Shown: piece by piece, positions 13,215-59,836 of the stretch | How the letters are laid out: every line of letters begins with the position of its first letter | How positions within the stretch are numbered: position 1 is the stretch's first letter | Origin: Candidatus Coatesbacteria bacterium | GTDB lineage: Bacteria > JAFGND01 | Assembly (NCBI GenBank): GCA_016927185.1 | Contig: JAFGND010000035.1 | Span: 11,887 to 75,886 of the forward strand | DNA: 64,000 nt | Direction of reading: 5' to 3' | The notes under the pieces: generated by a model | Told to the model about the DNA's origin: nothing | What the model saw: only the letters and a program-made list of their open reading frames with translations | Databases searched by the model: none | Made by a program: the position numbers and the translations under genes

Positions 13215-14660
13215 ATGTTTTCTGATACCATCAACAAGAGTGATTTATTATTCAAGGGATTGGTAGCATCTTTTCAGGATATTGCACTGCAAGGACTAGG
13301 CAAGGTTGCAAGTCATCACAGTGGAAAGATAGAGATAAATCTTGATGAAGCTTCATATGCCATAGATACATTAACAATGCTTCAGGAAAAAACAGTTAAT
13401 AATTTAAAGGAGGAGGAAGCCAGAGAACTTAATTCCCTGATTCACTATCTCAGAATGAATTATCTTGATGTATTGAAAGAAAACCAGAAGGATTCTGGAA
13501 ATAGCAGGAATTCTGAAGATACCAAACCTAACAATACAAATAATACTGAGAAGAAAGAGAATGAAATGAAAAGAACTCCATTTTATAAATTTCATAAGGA
13601 GATGGGAGGCAAACTGGTTCCGTTTGCTGGATTTGAGATGCCAGTCCAGTATGAAGGCATAAATCAGGAGCATTTGCATGTAAGAAATAAGGTTGGTGTT
13701 TTTGATGTTTCGCATATGGGTGAATTCTATATAAAAGGGGAGGATGCAGAGAAATTTGTTTCATATATTACCTGTAACAATCCTGAAGAGCTGGGTCCCC
13801 ATGGTGTCCAATATAGCGCATTTACAATGCCTCATAGTGGTCTGGTTGATGACCTGCTTGTATATAAAAGATCAGATGGCTTTCTTCTGGTTGTAAATGC
13901 AGCTAACATAGATAAAGACTGGCAATGGGTAAACAAGCAGAAAGATGGTTTTAAGGTAGAACTGGAAAATATAAGTGATAAAACAGCACAACTTGCTATC
14001 CAGGGACCTTTAGCTGAACCATTGACTGAAAAACTTACTGGATTAAAACTAACTGAAGTTCCTTTCTATGAATCTCGGGATTTCAAGATGTATGGCGAGA
14101 ACGTACTTCTTTCAAGAACTGGTTATACGGGCGAAGATGGATTTGAACTGTATTTCTCTCCTGAAATTGCAGATAAAGTATGGAGTGATTTATTTGAGGC
14201 AGGGAAGGAGTTTAATCTGAAACCGATAGGTCTAGGTGCAAGGGATTCCCTAAGACTTGAGATGAAATACTGTCTTTATGGGCATGATATTGACGAGACA
14301 ACATCTCCACTGGAAGCTGGTCTTGGGTGGATTGTCAAGCTTGATAAAGGTGATTTCATAGGCAAGGAAGTCCTGCTGAAGCAGAAAGATGAGAAACCAA
14401 AAAGGAAGCTTGTCTGCATCACAATGCTGGATAAGGCAATTCCAAGACAGCATTACAAGATTCTGTCGGTTATCAAGGAGGATATAGGTGAGGTTACAAG
14501 TGGCATAATGTCTCCTTCGCTTAACAAAGGCATAGCACTAGGTTATGTAAAGACTGAGTATTCAAAAATCGGTAATAAGGTTTTAATAGAAATAAGGGAT
14601 AAGCATTTTGAAGCGGAAATTGTAAAACCGCCATTTTGGAAAAGTGGATCACATAAGTAA
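13215..14660 (+). CDS. gcvT: Glycine cleavage system T protein (aminomethyltransferase) with an unusual 117-aa N-terminal extension
   Basis: The GcvT core begins at M118 (13566: MKRTPFYKFHKEMGGKLVPFAGFEMPVQYEG...). The ORF is open from ATG 13215, which is preceded by a strong Shine-Dalgarno sequence (GGGAGG-5nt-ATG). Confidence 0.8.
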   Translation: MFSDTINKSDLLFKGLVASFQDIALQGLGKVASHHSGKIEINLDEASYAIDTLTMLQEKTVNNLKEEEARELNSLIHYLRMNYLDVLKENQKDSGNSRNSEDTKPNNTNNTEKKENEMKRTPFYKFHKEMGGKLVPFAGFEMPVQYEGINQEHLHVRNKVGVFDVSHMGEFYIKGEDAEKFVSYITCNNPEELGPHGVQYSAFTMPHSGLVDDLLVYKRSDGFLLVVNAANIDKDWQWVNKQKDGFKVELENISDKTAQLAIQGPLAEPLTEKLTGLKLTEVPFYESRDFKMYGENVLLSRTGYTGEDGFELYFSPEIADKVWSDLFEAGKEFNLKPIGLGARDSLRLEMKYCLYGHDIDETTSPLEAGLGWIVKLDKGDFIGKEVLLKQKDEKPKRKLVCITMLDKAIPRQHYKILSVIKEDIGEVTSGIMSPSLNKGIALGYVKTEYSKIGNKVLIEIRDKHFEAEIVKPPFWKSGSHK

Positions 14661-17394: not shown

Positions 17395-19470
17395 TTATAA
17401 GCCTATTTTATCAGAAACTTCCCTCATTCCCTGAAGAGCAATGCCTACGAACTCATCTAGCTTCAATCCAGCTTTTTCGCATTCCATAATGGTTTCACGG
17501 GAAACATTTCTTGCAAAATCCTTCTTGTTCATCCTTTTCGTAACACTCTTTACCTCAACACTCGCCACTTTCCTGTCAGGATATACAAGGGCAGTTGCAA
17601 ATATAAGACCTGTTATTGTTTCTCCTGCCGCAAGAAGATACTCCAGCCTGTTTTTTCTTGAAGGCAGATTCAGTCCTTCAGCATTGTGGGAAAGTATAAG
17701 ACTGATTATATCTTCTGAGAATCCCTCTTTTTTCAGAATCTCTGCTGTTCCTAATCCATGATTATCAGGTTCCTTGTTTGTCTCGAAGTCCAAATCATGC
17801 AGAAGTCCAAGGATAAACCATTTGGTCTCGTCCTGTTTCAGATATCTTGCAAGTGCTTTCATTACACCAGCACTTGATATGCAATGGTTCTTCAGGTTTT
17901 CTGAAAAAACATACTTGTTGAAAATTTCCCAGGCTTTTTCCAGCGAAATATCAAGATTTTCAAGGGATGGTATTTTCATTGGATCTTCTTCTGAAGATTT
18001 CTGCAAATTTTCTTTTTGAAGAGGCTTCATTAACGGGAAAAGAATGACATCCCTCAGATTTTCGCAGTTTGCAAGTAGTGCAACAAACCTGTCTATTCCC
18101 ATCCCCCAACCTGAAACAGGTGGTAGTCCAGTTTCCAGACACTTGATGAAATCATCATCCATATCTAGTGCGTCTTCATCTCCTTCTGTGCGAAGTTTTG
18201 CCTGGATTTCAAGCCGCTGCTTCTGATCAACAGGATCAATTAGCTCGCTGTAAGCATTAACTATTTCCCAGGAGTTGGCAATCAGCTGGAATCTGTCAGC
18301 GACATCAGGAATTAAATCATTTCTTCTTGCAAGCGGTGAAAGATCTATCGGATGATAAATAAGGAATGTTGGCTGAATGAGAGATGGTCTTACCACCTGT
18401 TTGTAAAGCTGGTCAATTAAAGAACCTCTTCCCAGTTTATCAGAGTCTTCAATAGTCAATCCCTTGCTTTTTATTGCATCCCCGAGTGATTTTGTGTCAG
18501 GATAATCATTGATATCAAGATCAACCCTTGATTTAATAAGCTCCTGGAAAGACTGTCTCTTCCATACTCCTGAAAAATCAAGAACATTATTCTTGAAAGT
18601 CAATGAAAGTGAACCTGTTACTTCTTTTATTACATGTTTCACTAATTTTTCAGTGAAATTCATATTGTCCTCAAAATCCCAGTAGGCACAATAATATTCG
18701 AGCATGGTGAAATCCTGAAGGTGGCTTGCATCGATGCCTTCATTCCTGAAAACCCTTGCTACTTCATAAACCTTGTCATAACCTCCTGCAATGCACCTCT
18801 TGAGATAAGTTTCTGGAGCAATTCTCAGGAATACCTCCATATCAAGTGAGTTATGATGGGTTTTAAATGGTTTTGCGAGAGCTCCTGATTTCTGGGTAAC
18901 GAGAACTGGTGTATCGACTTCTTCAAAACCATTGCTATCAAGGAAATTCCTTATTGAGCGAATGATTTTAGTCCTGAGTTTGAAAACCTGCCTGCTTGCC
19001 GGATTCATTATCAAATCAAGATATCTGTATCTGTAGCAACTTTCAACGTCTGTTAATCCATGCCATTTCTCTGGAAGCGGATGAAGTGATTTTGAAAGCA
19101 GAATGAAATCTTTTGCAAGAACTGTTTTCTCTCCAGTTTTTGTTGTAAAGATATCTCCCTTTACTCCGATATGGTCCCCCACATCATATATTTTCCTTGC
19201 GTAGTCAAACTGCTCTTTCCCCAGAGAATTCTGTTCAATAGCTATCTGAATATTACCTTCCCAGTCAGTTAGCTTGAGAAAGCTTAGTTTACCGAAATCC
19301 CTTGATGCAGTTATTCTTCCTGCAACAGAGACATCTTTTGTATCATCAGGAAGATTGGATGCTTCTTTCAGATTATAGGTTCTTTCAAAACGTGCTTTAT
19401 ATACTTTCTCGTTATATCCCTTCATTATTTCAATCTTGGATAATCTGCTATCTCTTTCTGAAAAAGACAC
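17395..19470 (-). CDS. lysS: Lysyl-tRNA synthetase (class II) fused to a C-terminal YqeK-like HD-domain phosphohydrolase module
   Basis: Residues 1-485 form a canonical LysRS (anticodon-binding OB fold, class II motifs FRNEGID, GLPPVSGWGMGIDR). Residues ~490-691 carry an HD-domain signature (NHCISSAGVMKALARYL ... ILGLLHDLD ... HGLGTAEIL ... ILSHN) that resembles the YqeK Ap4A-hydrolase family. Confidence 0.8.
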   Translation of the reverse strand: MSFSERDSRLSKIEIMKGYNEKVYKARFERTYNLKEASNLPDDTKDVSVAGRITASRDFGKLSFLKLTDWEGNIQIAIEQNSLGKEQFDYARKIYDVGDHIGVKGDIFTTKTGEKTVLAKDFILLSKSLHPLPEKWHGLTDVESCYRYRYLDLIMNPASRQVFKLRTKIIRSIRNFLDSNGFEEVDTPVLVTQKSGALAKPFKTHHNSLDMEVFLRIAPETYLKRCIAGGYDKVYEVARVFRNEGIDASHLQDFTMLEYYCAYWDFEDNMNFTEKLVKHVIKEVTGSLSLTFKNNVLDFSGVWKRQSFQELIKSRVDLDINDYPDTKSLGDAIKSKGLTIEDSDKLGRGSLIDQLYKQVVRPSLIQPTFLIYHPIDLSPLARRNDLIPDVADRFQLIANSWEIVNAYSELIDPVDQKQRLEIQAKLRTEGDEDALDMDDDFIKCLETGLPPVSGWGMGIDRFVALLANCENLRDVILFPLMKPLQKENLQKSSEEDPMKIPSLENLDISLEKAWEIFNKYVFSENLKNHCISSAGVMKALARYLKQDETKWFILGLLHDLDFETNKEPDNHGLGTAEILKKEGFSEDIISLILSHNAEGLNLPSRKNRLEYLLAAGETITGLIFATALVYPDRKVASVEVKSVTKRMNKKDFARNVSRETIMECEKAGLKLDEFVGIALQGMREVSDKIGL

Positions 19471-19589
19471 TTATACCTCCTGTTAACTGGAACCACTTCC
19501 AGTTATTTTGGCTTTTTAGACAAGGTAATAAATAAACTCTTGAAATCTTTAACTTGTTATTAATTGATGGCTTAAAAAGGAAAAAAATA

Positions 19590-41506: not shown

Positions 41507-43360
41507 ATGAAAAGAGTAATATCAACTAGTCTTTTCTTTTTGTTCTTCTTATTTTTGATTGATTTGAAATTATTATCAGCGATAGATTGGGAACTTTACA
41601 AGACAAGAATTGATATCAAGAAAAACAATAAAAAATGGACTGCATGTGAAACAAGTATTTCAAGATTGCCAGAAGAAATCAGGGAATATTGTCTTGGGGG
41701 GATAAAAAGAAGTCCAATTGATTTGACAGATGGCAATGAATTTAAAAGTTCCGGGAAATTTCCTGAAAAATTTGACTGGAGAAATGTAAATGGAAGGAAC
41801 TTTACTACTCCAATAAAGGATCAGAAAAATTGTAAAGCTGACTGGGCATTTGCAACATTTGCTGCTGTTGAAACTCAGATAAAAATATTCCTTGATCAAG
41901 ACTTGATAATGCCTGATTTATCTGAGCAATACGTTGTTTCAACTACTTTTACTAAAGGAGATTGCTCTGGTTGTGGATTTTATGAACTAGCTGAATGGAT
42001 GAAAACAAATGGTGTTGTCTGGGAATCATGTTTTCCATACGAAGCAAGAAATGCCAACTGAAGTGAGAGATGCACTGACTGGGCTTACTGTCAGCAGACC
42101 ATTTCACAGTTAACAAGAGTTCCTTCAGCAAATAACAATTTTGATTTAATGAAGGAAGCAATTGCAACAAAGGGTCCTGTTTTTGCTATGATGAAGTTTT
42201 TTAATGATTTCCAGTATTACAAAGGTGGAATATATGAATGTAATGAGAATTCTGGATACTTAGGTTTGATATCTGTTTGTTTAATAGGTTATGACAATTA
42301 TAGTAATTGCTGGATAGGGAAAAACAGCTGGGGAACTGAATGGGGTGAAAAGGGCTATTTCAGATGTAGAATAGGAGGAGCCGATAGTTTAGGTAATTTA
42401 GGTCAAACATTTGTAGAAATAGCGGATGTAACAAATCATTTATGGTATATGACACCACTACCAGCAAGGTATTATGTTTCAGGTAAAAAAACCAATATTG
42501 AATGGCATAGTCTTGGTGTAAACAAGATCAATATCTACCTGTCAACTGATGGAGGCACTTCTTCTTCATGGACTGAAATCGTAAAAGACATGGATGCATC
42601 AAGTCAGACATATGAATGGATAATACCTGAAGTTGAATCCTCACAATGCAAGATAAAAATTATTGATAGTGAACATACAAGGGAAGGTTCTAAATGTTCA
42701 ATCGGGGCAGCTAAAACTGATGGAGTATTTGGAATAGGAAAAGAAAGATCTGTAAGATTGATTTATCCAAAAGGAGGAGAGACTTTTTATAATTCTCACA
42801 GATATTATATATATTGGGATTGTACCAAAAATGTTAGCAAGGTGAATATATATGGATCAACTGATGATGGTTCAACATGGCTTGAAGAAAAAGTCATAAG
42901 TAATGGAGAGGCACAAAAAAAATCCTTCTTATGGACTGTGGATACAAGGAAATTTCCTCCCACAACAAAAGGGAGAATGAAGATTACTGATACAGAATAT
43001 GAGATTGATGTAAATGATATTAATGATGATATATTTACTGTTTCAGATGAAATAATTGGATTCAACGATACAAAGCATAATAAGCATTTACCTGAAGAGC
43101 TTTCTTTGACAGCAGATCCAAATCCATGCAGAAACAGGTTATTGAATATAAGATTTTCTCTTCCTAAGAATACTTGCATAAGCATTAAAATAATTAATCT
43201 GATTGGAAAAACTGTCACAATAATTTTGGATAAAGAGAATTATGGAAAAGGGAATTATATAATCCACTGGCTTCCAATCAATCTAGCATCTGGTATTTAT
43301 TTCATAGAGATGAAATCAGAACAAAGAATATTGAATAAAAGTTTCTTGTTTGTAAAATAG
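41507..43360 (+). pseudogene. Secreted papain-like (C1) peptidase homologue with mutated catalytic dyad, interrupted by one in-frame TGA (42059-42061), plus a T9SS C-terminal domain
   Basis: Track ORFs 41507..42061 and 42149..43360 are in the same frame, separated only by a TGA. The joined translation aligns along the papain fold (DWR...TPIKDQ...CKADWAF ... FPYEARNAN*SERCTDWAYC ... KGPVF ... YYKGGIY ... NSWGTEWGEKGYFRC). The catalytic Cys is Asp (CKADW compared with CGSCW) and the catalytic His is Ile (LISVCLIGY). The C-terminus ends ...GIYFIEMKSEQRILNKSFLFVK, a T9SS CTD. Confidence 0.55.
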
Positions 43361-59648: not shown

Positions 59649-59651
59649 TTT

Positions 59652-59836
59652 ATCCCTGCAGTGTTTGTGATGTTTCGGGTAATATTGAGATAACAGTTTG
59701 AAACTTGGGGATCTTTAAGTTTATATCTGTAGTGTTGAACCCTTTGTAAGGGATTACTGAACAGATAGACGGATACCCACCTGAGGTTTAGGTTTCAAAT
59801 TTCCGAACACACGGCACACGCGGGGATTTCTTTTGA
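59652..59836 (+). ncRNA. Candidate structured ncRNA (6S/SsrS-like?) between zapA and rny
   Basis: The 197-nt non-coding gap contains a 5' arm ATCCCTGCAGTGTTTGTGATGTTTCGG (59652-) and a 3' arm CCGAACACACGGCACACGCGGGGAT (-59827). These can form an imperfect ~20-bp closing helix (8 bp, 4 bp, 3 bp and 5 bp segments). The 3' arm is followed by TTCTTTTG. An internal helix AGTTTGAAACT/GGTTTCAAATT and a CCCTT-TGT-AAGGG hairpin are also present. Confidence 0.3.

What the first reader, a model, noticed from the sequence alone, without database searches (positions are those of the whole stretch)
17395..19470. Lysyl-tRNA synthetase fused to a YqeK-like HD-domain phosphohydrolase
The ORF is about 190 aa longer than canonical LysRS. 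The extension carries H...HD...H...H motifs that align to the YqeK family of HD-domain Ap4A hydrolases (GVM, LHDLD, HGLGTAEIL). LysRS is the main cellular source of Ap4A. Covalently coupling the synthetase to an Ap4A-degrading HD domain would be a logical but, to my knowledge, unusual way to control this alarmone.
Basis: partly seen in the sequence, partly recalled or inferred. Interest (0 to 1): 0.55.

Follow-up and report, generated by a model that had tools for sequence, protein, structure and literature searches.

The report
Lysyl-tRNA synthetase with tethered HD hydrolase
This gene really does encode a normal lysyl-tRNA synthetase joined by a floppy linker to an intact metal-dependent HD phosphohydrolase; the same fusion recurs in many uncultured bacteria, but the hydrolase belongs to an unstudied family only distantly related to the known Ap4A-degrading enzyme YqeK, so its substrate is still a guess.

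Summary
ORF 17395-19470 (-) encodes 691 aa: a complete class IIb LysRS (aa 1-483), an unstructured linker of about 26 aa, and a 182-aa HD domain. It is not an artefact. An identical protein is in GenBank (Candidatus Coatesbacteria MAG, named only "lysine--tRNA ligase"). At least 120 protein clusters at 90 % identity, from Spirochaetota, Planctomycetota, Patescibacteria and others, share the architecture, and the two halves co-diverge.

The HD part belongs to a large uncharacterised family of mostly stand-alone proteins of about 184 aa, with no solved structure. It keeps a two-metal ligand set (H, HD, H, H, E).

"YqeK-like" is only partly right. Profile-profile homology to YqeK is real (95.5 %) but covers only the N-terminal half. 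The YqeK model is not matched, the YqeK phosphate-binding residues R18/K54/R133 are absent, and two cultured bacteria carry both YqeK and this family.

Best reading (about 0.4): a tethered, catalytically active nucleotide phosphohydrolase that removes a LysRS by-product such as Ap4A/ApnN. A tRNA- or RNA-end-directed role, or hydrolysis of another nucleotide signal, remains open. The finding is moderately interesting: an undescribed but common synthetase variant that offers a functional lead to an orphan HD family.

The parts
17395..19470 (-). Whole ORF, 691 aa plus stop: a LysRS-linker-HD fusion protein.
   Evidence: Single ORF. It is 100 % identical over its full length to GenBank protein P0121, 'lysine--tRNA ligase [Candidatus Coatesbacteria bacterium]'.
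19096..19332 (-). OB-fold anticodon-binding domain (aa 47-125).
   Evidence: PF01336, E = 1.6e-13. Coordinates checked by translation.
18028..19044 (-). Class II catalytic core (aa 143-481), with motif 2 FRNEG (18736-18750) and motif 3 GWGMGIDR (18088-18111).
   Evidence: PF00152, E = 5.4e-78. The lysS models score above their cut-offs. R242, N243, E244, G454, G456, G458 and R461 are invariant in 51 fusions. Translations checked.
17944..18021 (-). Flexible linker (aa 484-509, LQKENLQKSSEEDPMKIPSLENLDIS).
   Evidence: Coil in the full-length model, with pLDDT below 50 at 486-494. In 120 orthologues its length varies from 18 to 83 aa and its sequence is not conserved. Met498 is not conserved and has no SD-like motif before it.
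17398..17943 (-). HD/HDIG phosphohydrolase domain (aa 510-691), all-helical.
17884..17886 (-). His529, the first metal ligand (aligns with YqeK H21).
   Evidence: Invariant in A1. It is H in 113 of 120 fusions and Q in 7. Aligned by hhalign.
17788..17799 (-). His558-Asp559-Leu-Asp561: the HD doublet plus a family-specific invariant Asp. The lysine of the YqeK/HDIG 'HDxxK' motif is absent.
   Evidence: The YqeK K54/K62 role comes from PMC13627108 and PMC11857287.
17758..17760 (-). His571, the third His ligand (aligns with YqeK H83).
   Evidence: Invariant in 120 of 120 fusions. Aligned by hhalign.
17683..17688 (-). His595-Asn596, the fourth His ligand (aligns with YqeK H109).
   Evidence: H is invariant in 120 of 120 fusions and N is present in 114. 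Aligned by hhalign.
17620..17622 (-). Glu617 in the GETITGL motif, the presumed last acidic ligand (YqeK has Asp127 in ADYIEPxR).
   Evidence: It is E in 119 of 120 fusions and D in 1. It is D in the homologues from cultured Clostridia and Coriobacteriia. Its role as a ligand is inferred from spacing, not shown.

Best explanation
Shown:
- The gene encodes a complete, catalytically intact class IIb lysyl-tRNA synthetase.
- Its C-terminus carries a 182-aa HD-superfamily domain on a disordered, length-variable linker.
- That domain has a full two-metal-type ligand set (H529; H558-D559; H571; H595; E617).
- The domain is a member of a large, uncharacterised, mostly stand-alone family of about 184 aa.
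- The fusion is an old gene, maintained by selection, and spread over several bacterial phyla.

Inferred:
- The HD module is an active phosphodiesterase or pyrophosphohydrolase working on a small nucleotide rather than on protein or on tRNA as a whole.
- Tethering it to LysRS places it next to the site where lysyl-adenylate reacts with ATP or other NTPs when tRNA is scarce.
- It would therefore destroy dinucleoside polyphosphates (Ap4A, Ap3A, Ap4N, perhaps p4A) as they are made, limiting alarmone build-up.
- It would do this with substrate-binding residues different from those of YqeK.
- The identity of the substrate is the weakest step.
For: Architecture and reality of the fusion.
- 120 of the 120 best full-length hits are 676-747 aa and cover 96-100 % of the query.
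- 10 GTDB genomes and 3 metagenome contigs hold the fusion in frame.
- The LysRS motifs are invariant.

Catalytic competence of the HD domain:
- All eight checked positions are kept in 106 of 120 fusions, and H558, D561, H571 and H595 in all 120.
- The same residues are invariant in the stand-alone proteins.

Kinship with a proven Ap4A hydrolase:
- hhalign to YqeK gives 95.5 % probability, with four ligand motifs in register and an identical 29-residue H-to-HD spacing (PMC11857287; PMC13627108).
- YqeK proteins are the only HD-type PDB sequences reached by the family profile.

Small-molecule enzyme rather than RNA binder:
- The module is acidic (pI about 5.7, net charge -1 to -12 in 32 of 33 sequences), like YqeK.
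- The linker is flexible and varies from 18 to 83 aa.

Logic of the fusion:
- LysRS is the main Ap4A source (PMC13627108, PMC7705103).
- LysRS is the only recurrent fusion partner of the family, accounting for at least 19 of the 150 best representatives.
- One variant inserts a HAD phosphatase between LysRS and HD (P0322), which fits nucleotide catabolism.
- The phyla carrying the fusion are not among those listed for ApaH or YqeK (PMC7705103, PMC10148737).
- As an analogy, YqeK itself sits beside or fused to the adenylyltransferase NadD.
Against: - No activity was measured.
- The domain fails the curated YqeK model.
- The residues with which YqeK grips the tetraphosphate (R18, K54, R133) are not conserved or not alignable (PMC13627108).
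- The C-terminal half, which forms the YqeK nucleotide pocket, does not align.
- The nearest curated HMMs are the HD tail of an archaeal tRNA methyltransferase fusion, TIGR00295, and RNase Y.
- Acetoanaerobium noterae and Collinsella aerofaciens each carry both yqeK and a signature-bearing member of this family on one replicon, so the two are not simply interchangeable.
- Stand-alone members are never next to lysS: 0 of 70 unfused lysS loci, and lysS does not appear among the recurrent neighbours in 74 stand-alone loci.
- Seven fusions have Q...HN in place of H...HD, which suggests the domain can be kept without the canonical first metal site.
Confidence: 0.4

Rival explanations
1. The HD module is directed at tRNA or an RNA end. 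It would act either as a 2',3'-cyclic phosphodiesterase/phosphatase that heals the tRNA 3' end before aminoacylation, as does the HD domain of bacterial CCA-adding enzymes (my own knowledge, not tested here), or as a helper in tRNA acceptor-arm handling.
For: - The best curated matches of the family are the HD tail of the archaeal Trm56 tRNA-methyltransferase fusion (NF009343; 32 of 33 members, best E = 1.4e-10) and RNase Y (33 of 33 members, 1.7e-7). Both score better than YqeK (2.7e-4).
- The C-terminal half has a conserved basic stretch, KRMKKKDFAR..R.
- One variant inserts DUF2000 between LysRS and HD (P0319). I recall DUF2000 as having a peptidyl-tRNA-hydrolase-like fold, but this is unverified: there was no PDB sequence hit.
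Against: - The module is acidic overall, unlike typical appended tRNA-binding domains.
- The GlyRS HD has lost its HD doublet (Ser393-Lys394; PMC8464048), whereas this one keeps every ligand.
- Most family members are stand-alone, with no recurrent tRNA-related neighbours.
- The linker length is highly variable, which argues against a fixed geometry relative to bound tRNA.
Confidence: 0.2
2. The HD module hydrolyses a different nucleotide signal (c-di-AMP, c-di-GMP, (p)ppGpp/(p)ppApp, 2',3'-cNMP). The fusion would then couple translation status to that signalling pathway rather than to Ap4A.
For: - The two-metal ligand set is common to these enzymes.
- Co-occurrence with YqeK in the same genomes fits a non-Ap4A substrate.
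Against: - No sequence-level match to any of these families.
- The domain lacks the GYP motif, the HDxxK lysine, and the 7TM module of PgpH.
- There is no known biochemical link between LysRS and these nucleotides.
Confidence: 0.15
3. The HD module is mainly a ligand-sensing or regulatory, non-catalytic domain that modulates LysRS activity.
For: - Seven fusions (P0223, P0225, P0230, P0232, P0233, P0237, P0238) carry paired Q and N substitutions at the first His and at the Asp of the HD doublet, yet retain the domain.
- There is a precedent: the degenerate HD domain in GlyRS beta affects the second step of aminoacylation (PMC8464048).
Against: - 113 of 120 fusions and all 33 aligned family members keep both the first His and the HD Asp, and 106 of 120 fusions keep all eight checked positions.
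- The same family exists overwhelmingly as a stand-alone protein, with no partner to regulate.
Confidence: 0.1
4. The fusion is an assembly, frame or gene-calling artefact that joins two separate genes.
For: - The window comes from a metagenome-assembled genome.
- A Met (residue 498) lies near the position where the stand-alone homologues start.
Against: - The ORF is continuous and an identical protein is in GenBank.
- At least 120 independent clusters from many samples and phyla share the architecture at 44-67 % identity.
- In-frame fusions occur in 10 GTDB genomes and 3 metagenome contigs.
- The LysRS-core groups and the HD groups co-diverge.
- Met498 is not conserved and has no SD-like motif before it.
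Confidence: 0.01

Closest known systems
YqeK (COG1713, TIGR00488), the symmetrical Ap4A/Ap4N hydrolase of Firmicutes and some other phyla.
   Same: - HD fold and similar size (about 185-195 aa), and both are acidic.
- Two-metal ligand pattern H / HD / H / H / acidic, with four motifs in register and the same 29-residue H-to-HD spacing (PMC11857287; PMC13627108).
- Both are associated with an adenylyl-transferring enzyme: NadD for YqeK and LysRS here.
   Different: - It fails the curated YqeK model.
- Homology covers only the N-terminal half.
- It lacks R18, K54 (HDxxK), R133 (ADYIEPxR) and HTTG.
- The family signatures are instead HDxD, HN, GETITGL and KRMKKKDFAR.
- There is a 19-residue deletion between HD and the third His.
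- The last ligand is Glu in this subfamily.
- It co-occurs with YqeK in two cultured genomes.
The uncharacterised stand-alone 'HDIG domain-containing metalloprotein' family of about 184 aa. Its archaeal relatives are TIGR00295 and the HD tail of the Trm56 fusion, NF009343.
   Same: This is the family the domain belongs to: 50-56 % identity over the full length, with identical invariant residues. The family has 331 representatives at E <= 1e-30 and 2,122 at E <= 1e-10 at the 50 % clustering level.
   Different: - Here the domain is fused to LysRS; most members are free-standing (74 of 77 metagenome loci).
- There is no characterised member and no solved structure.
- The TIGR00295 and NF009343 cut-offs are not reached.
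The HD domain of the bacterial heterotetrameric GlyRS beta-subunit.
   Different: The GlyRS domain is internal, has lost the HD doublet (Ser393-Lys394), and is proposed to serve tRNA acceptor-arm binding (PMC8464048). The LysRS-appended domain is C-terminal on a flexible linker and keeps all its ligands.
LysX (NF002821), the mycobacterial LysRS-MprF fusion.
   Same: It is a LysRS covalently joined to an enzyme that consumes a LysRS product, which is a precedent for product coupling by fusion. The LysRS core matches the LysX model over positions 624-1100.
   Different: The partner there is a membrane lysyl-phosphatidylglycerol synthase that uses Lys-tRNA. Here the partner is a soluble HD hydrolase, and the score is far below the LysX cut-off (465 against 742).
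PgpH and HD-GYP cyclic-dinucleotide phosphodiesterases.
   Different: Sequence identity is only 12-13 %. The domain has no GYP motif, no HDxxK lysine and no membrane or receiver module.

Membership tests
Class IIb lysyl-tRNA synthetase (LysS) | Scores above the curated cut-off of the lysS models. | tested here: met
   NF001756 scores 568 bits (cut-off 468) and TIGR00499 scores 517.9 bits (cut-off 427.6), over aa 19-483.
Class IIb lysyl-tRNA synthetase (LysS) | An OB anticodon-binding domain plus a class II core with motifs 2 and 3. | tested here: met
   PF01336 at 47-125 and PF00152 at 143-481. FRNEG and GWGMGIDR are present and invariant in 51 fusions.
HD superfamily (PF01966) / HDIG (TIGR00277) | Profile score above cut-off and H...HD...D/E metal ligands. 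| tested here: met
   PF01966 scores 31.9 bits (cut-off 22) and TIGR00277 scores 35.1 bits (cut-off 27.6). The ligands are invariant.
HD superfamily (PF01966) / HDIG (TIGR00277) | An all-helical HD fold. | tested here: met
YqeK Ap4A hydrolase (TIGR00488 / COG1713) | Scores at the curated family model. | tested here: not met
   The window domain does not hit at E <= 10. 22 of 33 family members give only weak hits, the best at 2.7e-4.
YqeK Ap4A hydrolase (TIGR00488 / COG1713) | Binuclear ligands H21, H50, D51, H83, H109 and D127. | tested here: inconclusive
   The first five ligands align. The sixth lies outside the alignable region, where a Glu (E617) sits at similar spacing.
YqeK Ap4A hydrolase (TIGR00488 / COG1713) | Tetraphosphate-binding residues R18, K54 and R133, and the C-terminal adenine pocket (L164, Y172, T175), per PMC13627108. 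| tested here: not met
   R18 corresponds to Leu, K54 to Phe/Val, and the region from R133 onward is not alignable.
YqeK Ap4A hydrolase (TIGR00488 / COG1713) | The nadD-yqeK-rsfS gene context. | tested here: not met
   All five YqeK loci have that context. None of the HD-family loci do.
YqeK Ap4A hydrolase (TIGR00488 / COG1713) | Symmetrical hydrolysis of Ap4A to 2 ADP. | not testable with these tools
   Requires an enzyme assay.
TIGR00295 / Trm56-associated HD (NF009343) | Scores above the curated cut-off. | tested here: not met
   TIGR00295 scores 30.6 bits (cut-off 172) and NF009343 scores 24.7 bits (cut-off 434). The matches do span the whole HD part, however.
GlyRS-beta-type degenerate HD (tRNA acceptor-arm binder) | A lost HD doublet and an internal position in a tRNA-binding subunit. 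| tested here: not met
   The HD doublet and all His ligands are retained. The domain is C-terminal on a flexible linker. Compare PMC8464048.

The most novel reading that the evidence does not exclude
The 184-aa HD family (signatures H...HDxD...H...HN...GE/DTxTG) is a third, so far unrecognised family of bacterial dinucleoside-polyphosphate (Ap4A/ApnN or p4A) hydrolases, beside ApaH and YqeK. It would serve phyla such as Bacteroidota, Spirochaetota, Planctomycetota, Patescibacteria and Coatesbacteria. The recurrent LysRS fusion is the Rosetta stone that reveals this function: an aminoacyl-tRNA synthetase that carries its own alarmone-destroying domain.
Probability: 0.3. Interest if true: 0.75.

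Novelty: new variant of a known kind. Interest (0 to 1): 0.5.

Why it matters
Ap4A is a long-debated bacterial stress nucleotide. Its degradation is understood only for ApaH (beta- and gamma-proteobacteria), YqeK (Firmicutes and a few other groups) and some Nudix enzymes.

A LysRS that carries an intact hydrolase on a tether, maintained across several phyla, would be a direct and easily testable case of producer and destroyer in one polypeptide.

It would also give a first functional handle on an orphan HD family that has thousands of members and no structure. Even if the substrate turns out to be something else, such as a tRNA end or another nucleotide, this would be the first aminoacyl-tRNA synthetase known to carry a catalytically competent HD domain.

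Tried and rejected
1. Artefact. Rejected by the comparative data.

2. YqeK membership. Rejected.

3. Stand-alone HD genes next to lysS as supporting gene-neighbourhood evidence. None found in 70 unfused lysS loci, and lysS was not among the recurrent neighbours in 74 stand-alone loci.

4. Separate expression of the HD part from internal Met498. The Met is not conserved, there is no SD-like motif, and promoter-like sites occur at the chance rate.

5. One fusion event or several. The NJ trees of the HD domains and of the LysRS cores have very short backbone branches and no support values. They show only co-divergence within groups and a patchy fused state, so this is unresolved.

6. Direct sequence search of the tail against the PDB found nothing relevant.

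7. The last large-database search, seeded with a 49-aa YqeK fragment, returned only fragments. YqeK sequences were instead taken from chromosome-scale 'plasmid' records.

8. The AFDB fold library was unavailable.

9. The DUF2000 insert gave no PDB or NCBIfam match, so its remembered similarity to peptidyl-tRNA hydrolase could not be checked.

10. A look-up of P0121's contig found nothing on record.

11. No riboswitch, T-box or tRNA lies near the gene.

12. Literature searches for a LysRS-HD fusion, COG2316, Trm56 plus HD, and DUF2000 found nothing. Minazzato et al. 2020 is not held in the library.
Full report
**Observation**

The window has a single uninterrupted ORF at 17395..19470 on the minus strand: GTG start, 691 aa.
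- Pfam places an OB anticodon-binding domain at aa 47-125, a class II synthetase core at 143-481 and an HD domain at 528-600.
- NCBIfam puts aa 19-483 above the curated cut-offs of two lysS models. The tail is above the cut-off of the HDIG domain model.
- Translations of the individual codons confirm motif 2 (FRNEG), motif 3 (GWGMGIDR), H529, HDLD 558-561, H571, HN 595-596 and E617.
- GC content is even across the junction.
- The plus-strand ORFs that overlap the gene were not examined further.
- No riboswitch, T-box or tRNA gene lies nearby.
- The gene is flanked by a divergent ribD and a convergent gene for a T9SS-sorted beta-propeller protein, with no functional link visible.

**Not an artefact**

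- The protein is 100 % identical over its full length to a GenBank entry from a Candidatus Coatesbacteria MAG, named simply "lysine--tRNA ligase". NCBI places that group among the candidate phyla, as Candidatus Coatesiibacteriota.
- All 120 best full-length hits in the 5.8-billion-protein collection are 676-747 aa, cover 96-100 % of the query at 44-67 % identity, and mostly carry precomputed HD plus synthetase Pfam hits. Where named, they come from Spirochaetota, Planctomycetota, Patescibacteria and Exilispira.
- In GTDB species representatives, 10 of the 80 best lysS loci are fused in frame. Three of 77 metagenome loci found with the HD profile are fused too.
- In an alignment of 51 fusions, the LysRS catalytic residues and the HD ligands are both invariant.
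- Neighbour-joining trees of the two halves give the same groups (for example sets of 19, 2 and 11 proteins), so the halves have diverged together.
- Two unfused Spirochaetales LysRS nest among fused ones, and four fused genes lie among unfused lineages. The character has therefore been gained or lost more than once, but the backbone is unresolved.

**What the C-terminal domain is**

- Searched alone, the tail finds more than 4,500 proteins. Nearly all are stand-alone proteins of about 184 aa at 50-56 % identity, annotated only as HD or HDIG domain proteins.
- An exhaustive HMM search counts 331 representatives at E <= 1e-30 and 2,122 at E <= 1e-10 at the 50 % clustering level.
- The family invariants are H34, H63-D64, D66, H76, H100-N101, R110, E122-x-x-T-G, P136, R151, F157 and R163 (domain numbering; add 495 for protein numbering).
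- The AlphaFold model is confident (pLDDT 93.7, pTM 0.91) and all-helical.
- No solved structure belongs to the family by sequence.

**The YqeK question**

- The family profile reaches only YqeK proteins among HD-type PDB sequences (8JJA at 4e-4, 2OGI at 0.011), and only across the H...HD segment.
- I built a YqeK alignment from five annotated genes, all in the nadD-yqeK-rsfS context. hhalign gives 95.5 % probability (E = 1.5e-8) over about 90 columns. It aligns H34, H63-D64, H76 and H100 with YqeK H21, H50-D51, H83 and H109, which are five of the six metal ligands defined crystallographically (PMC13627108; PMC11857287).
- The alignment ends there.
- The residues with which YqeK binds the tetraphosphate (R18, K54, R133) correspond to Leu, to Phe/Val, and to an unalignable region. 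The YqeK invariants HTTG and ADYIEPxR are absent (PMC13627108).
- The curated YqeK model is not matched by the window domain. It is matched only weakly by 22 of 33 family members (best 2.7e-4), behind the HD tail of an archaeal Trm56 fusion (1.4e-10), TIGR00295 (4.7e-8) and RNase Y (1.7e-7).
- Signature-bearing members of the family co-occur with annotated or detectable yqeK on the same replicon in Acetoanaerobium noterae and Collinsella aerofaciens.
- The domain is thus a homologue with the same kind of metal centre, but it is not a YqeK.

**Anatomy of the fusion**

- The full-length model (pLDDT 87.8, pTM 0.70) has confident LysRS and HD parts joined by a coil at 484-509, with pLDDT below 50 at 486-494.
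- In 120 orthologues the linker is 18-83 aa long and unconserved.
- Met498 in the linker is not conserved and has no SD-like motif before it.
- The HD module is acidic (pI about 5.7), like YqeK.
- Of 120 fusions, 106 keep all eight checked positions. Seven have a paired Q...HN change at the first His and at the HD Asp.
- LysRS is the only recurrent fusion partner of the family. Rare variants insert a HAD-IA hydrolase (P0322, 918 aa) or DUF2000 (P0319) between the two parts. AMMECR1, FtsY and beta-propeller partners each occur once.

**Context of the stand-alone genes**

- None lies within 6 kb of 70 unfused lysS genes.
- In one lineage the gene follows a molybdenum-cofactor cluster (MoeA, MoaA, MoaC, MOSC-MoaB/Mog) and precedes a GNAT gene and divIC. 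This was seen in 10 of 47 loci with enough upstream sequence, where the HDs are 58-91 % identical to each other. Two such proteins are named Bacteroidales or come from contigs with T9SS genes.
- Elsewhere the contexts differ.

**Interpretation**

The conserved two-metal centre, the acidic character, the free-standing majority and the flexible tether all point to an autonomous small-molecule phosphohydrolase recruited to LysRS.

The most economical substrate class is the dinucleoside polyphosphates that LysRS makes from lysyl-adenylate (PMC13627108, PMC7705103). It is also consistent with the fact that the phyla concerned are not listed as carriers of ApaH or YqeK (PMC7705103, PMC10148737).

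Against it stand the missing YqeK substrate-binding residues, the co-occurrence with YqeK, the lack of any lysS neighbourhood signal, and the closer profile similarity to HD domains attached to RNA-acting enzymes. I put this reading at about 0.4.

The alternatives are:
- a tRNA- or RNA-end-directed activity, at about 0.2. The GlyRS-beta HD is the only precedent of an HD domain in a synthetase, but it is degenerate (PMC8464048).
- another nucleotide signal, at about 0.15.
- a mainly regulatory role, at about 0.1.

**Novelty**

Searches of the held literature found no description of a LysRS-HD fusion or of this HD family. The proteins are in public databases under the plain name lysine--tRNA ligase.

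It is a new variant of known kinds (a synthetase with an appended domain, and an HD hydrolase). It is not a new category, and it is not rare.

Noticed in passing
L081 2012-6555; L085/L086 1248-5555; L091, L093, L098, L099, L104, L110, L119, L121, L128, L144, L146, L155: The stand-alone HD gene sits directly downstream, on the same strand, of a molybdenum-cofactor cluster (MoeA, MoaA, MoaC, MOSC+MoaB/Mog; L081 also has an inorganic pyrophosphatase). It is often followed by a 171-aa GNAT acetyltransferase and divIC. In Paraclostridium (L177) a modA gene lies two genes away. This could be lineage synteny or a functional link to another adenylyl-transferring step.
   Followed up: partly
P0322 (918 aa) and P0319 (491 aa, N-terminally truncated): Triple-domain variants: LysRS-HAD-IA hydrolase-HD and LysRS-DUF2000-HD. 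The inserted domains sit where the linker is in the window protein.
   Followed up: partly
P0223, P0225, P0230, P0232, P0233, P0237, P0238 (724-739 aa; one named Planctomycetota): A subgroup of LysRS-HD fusions has a paired substitution, Q for the first His and N for the Asp of the HD doublet, while keeping the other ligands. This suggests a changed or lost first metal site.
   Followed up: no
P0287 (370 aa), P0330 (628 aa), P0304 (555 aa): Single examples of other architectures in the same HD family: AMMECR1-HD, HD-FtsY (SRP54 GTPase), and PQQ-like beta-propeller-HD.
   Followed up: no
window 41507-42061 and 42149-43360 (+): A papain-family peptidase (Peptidase_C1) with a T9SS sorting tail appears split into two adjacent ORFs, covering profile positions 2-96 and 127-205. 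This may be a frameshift, a pseudogene or a sequencing error.
   Followed up: no
window 59650-59830 (+): A 6S/SsrS RNA gene (Rfam RF00013, 59.4 bits, full length). It is the only Rfam match in the window, and no tRNA genes occur in the 64 kb.
   Followed up: no
window 13215-14660 (+): The glycine-cleavage T protein carries an N-terminal DUF1844 domain (aa 13-84) ahead of GCV_T, which is an unusual extension.
   Followed up: no
window 19484-19505 (+): A 9-bp hairpin followed by a T-run lies in the 83-bp gap between the lysS-HD start and the divergent ribD. It is the only terminator-like site in the region, which is no more than the 1.8 expected by chance.
   Followed up: no
PLSDB records NZ_CP154629.1 (2.63 Mb), NZ_CP030101.1 (2.9 Mb), NZ_CP093325.1 (5.5 Mb) and others: Several records labelled 'plasmid' are chromosome-sized and carry housekeeping operons such as nadD-yqeK-rsfS. 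They were useful here as a source of YqeK sequences, but they are a labelling problem in the collection.
   Followed up: no
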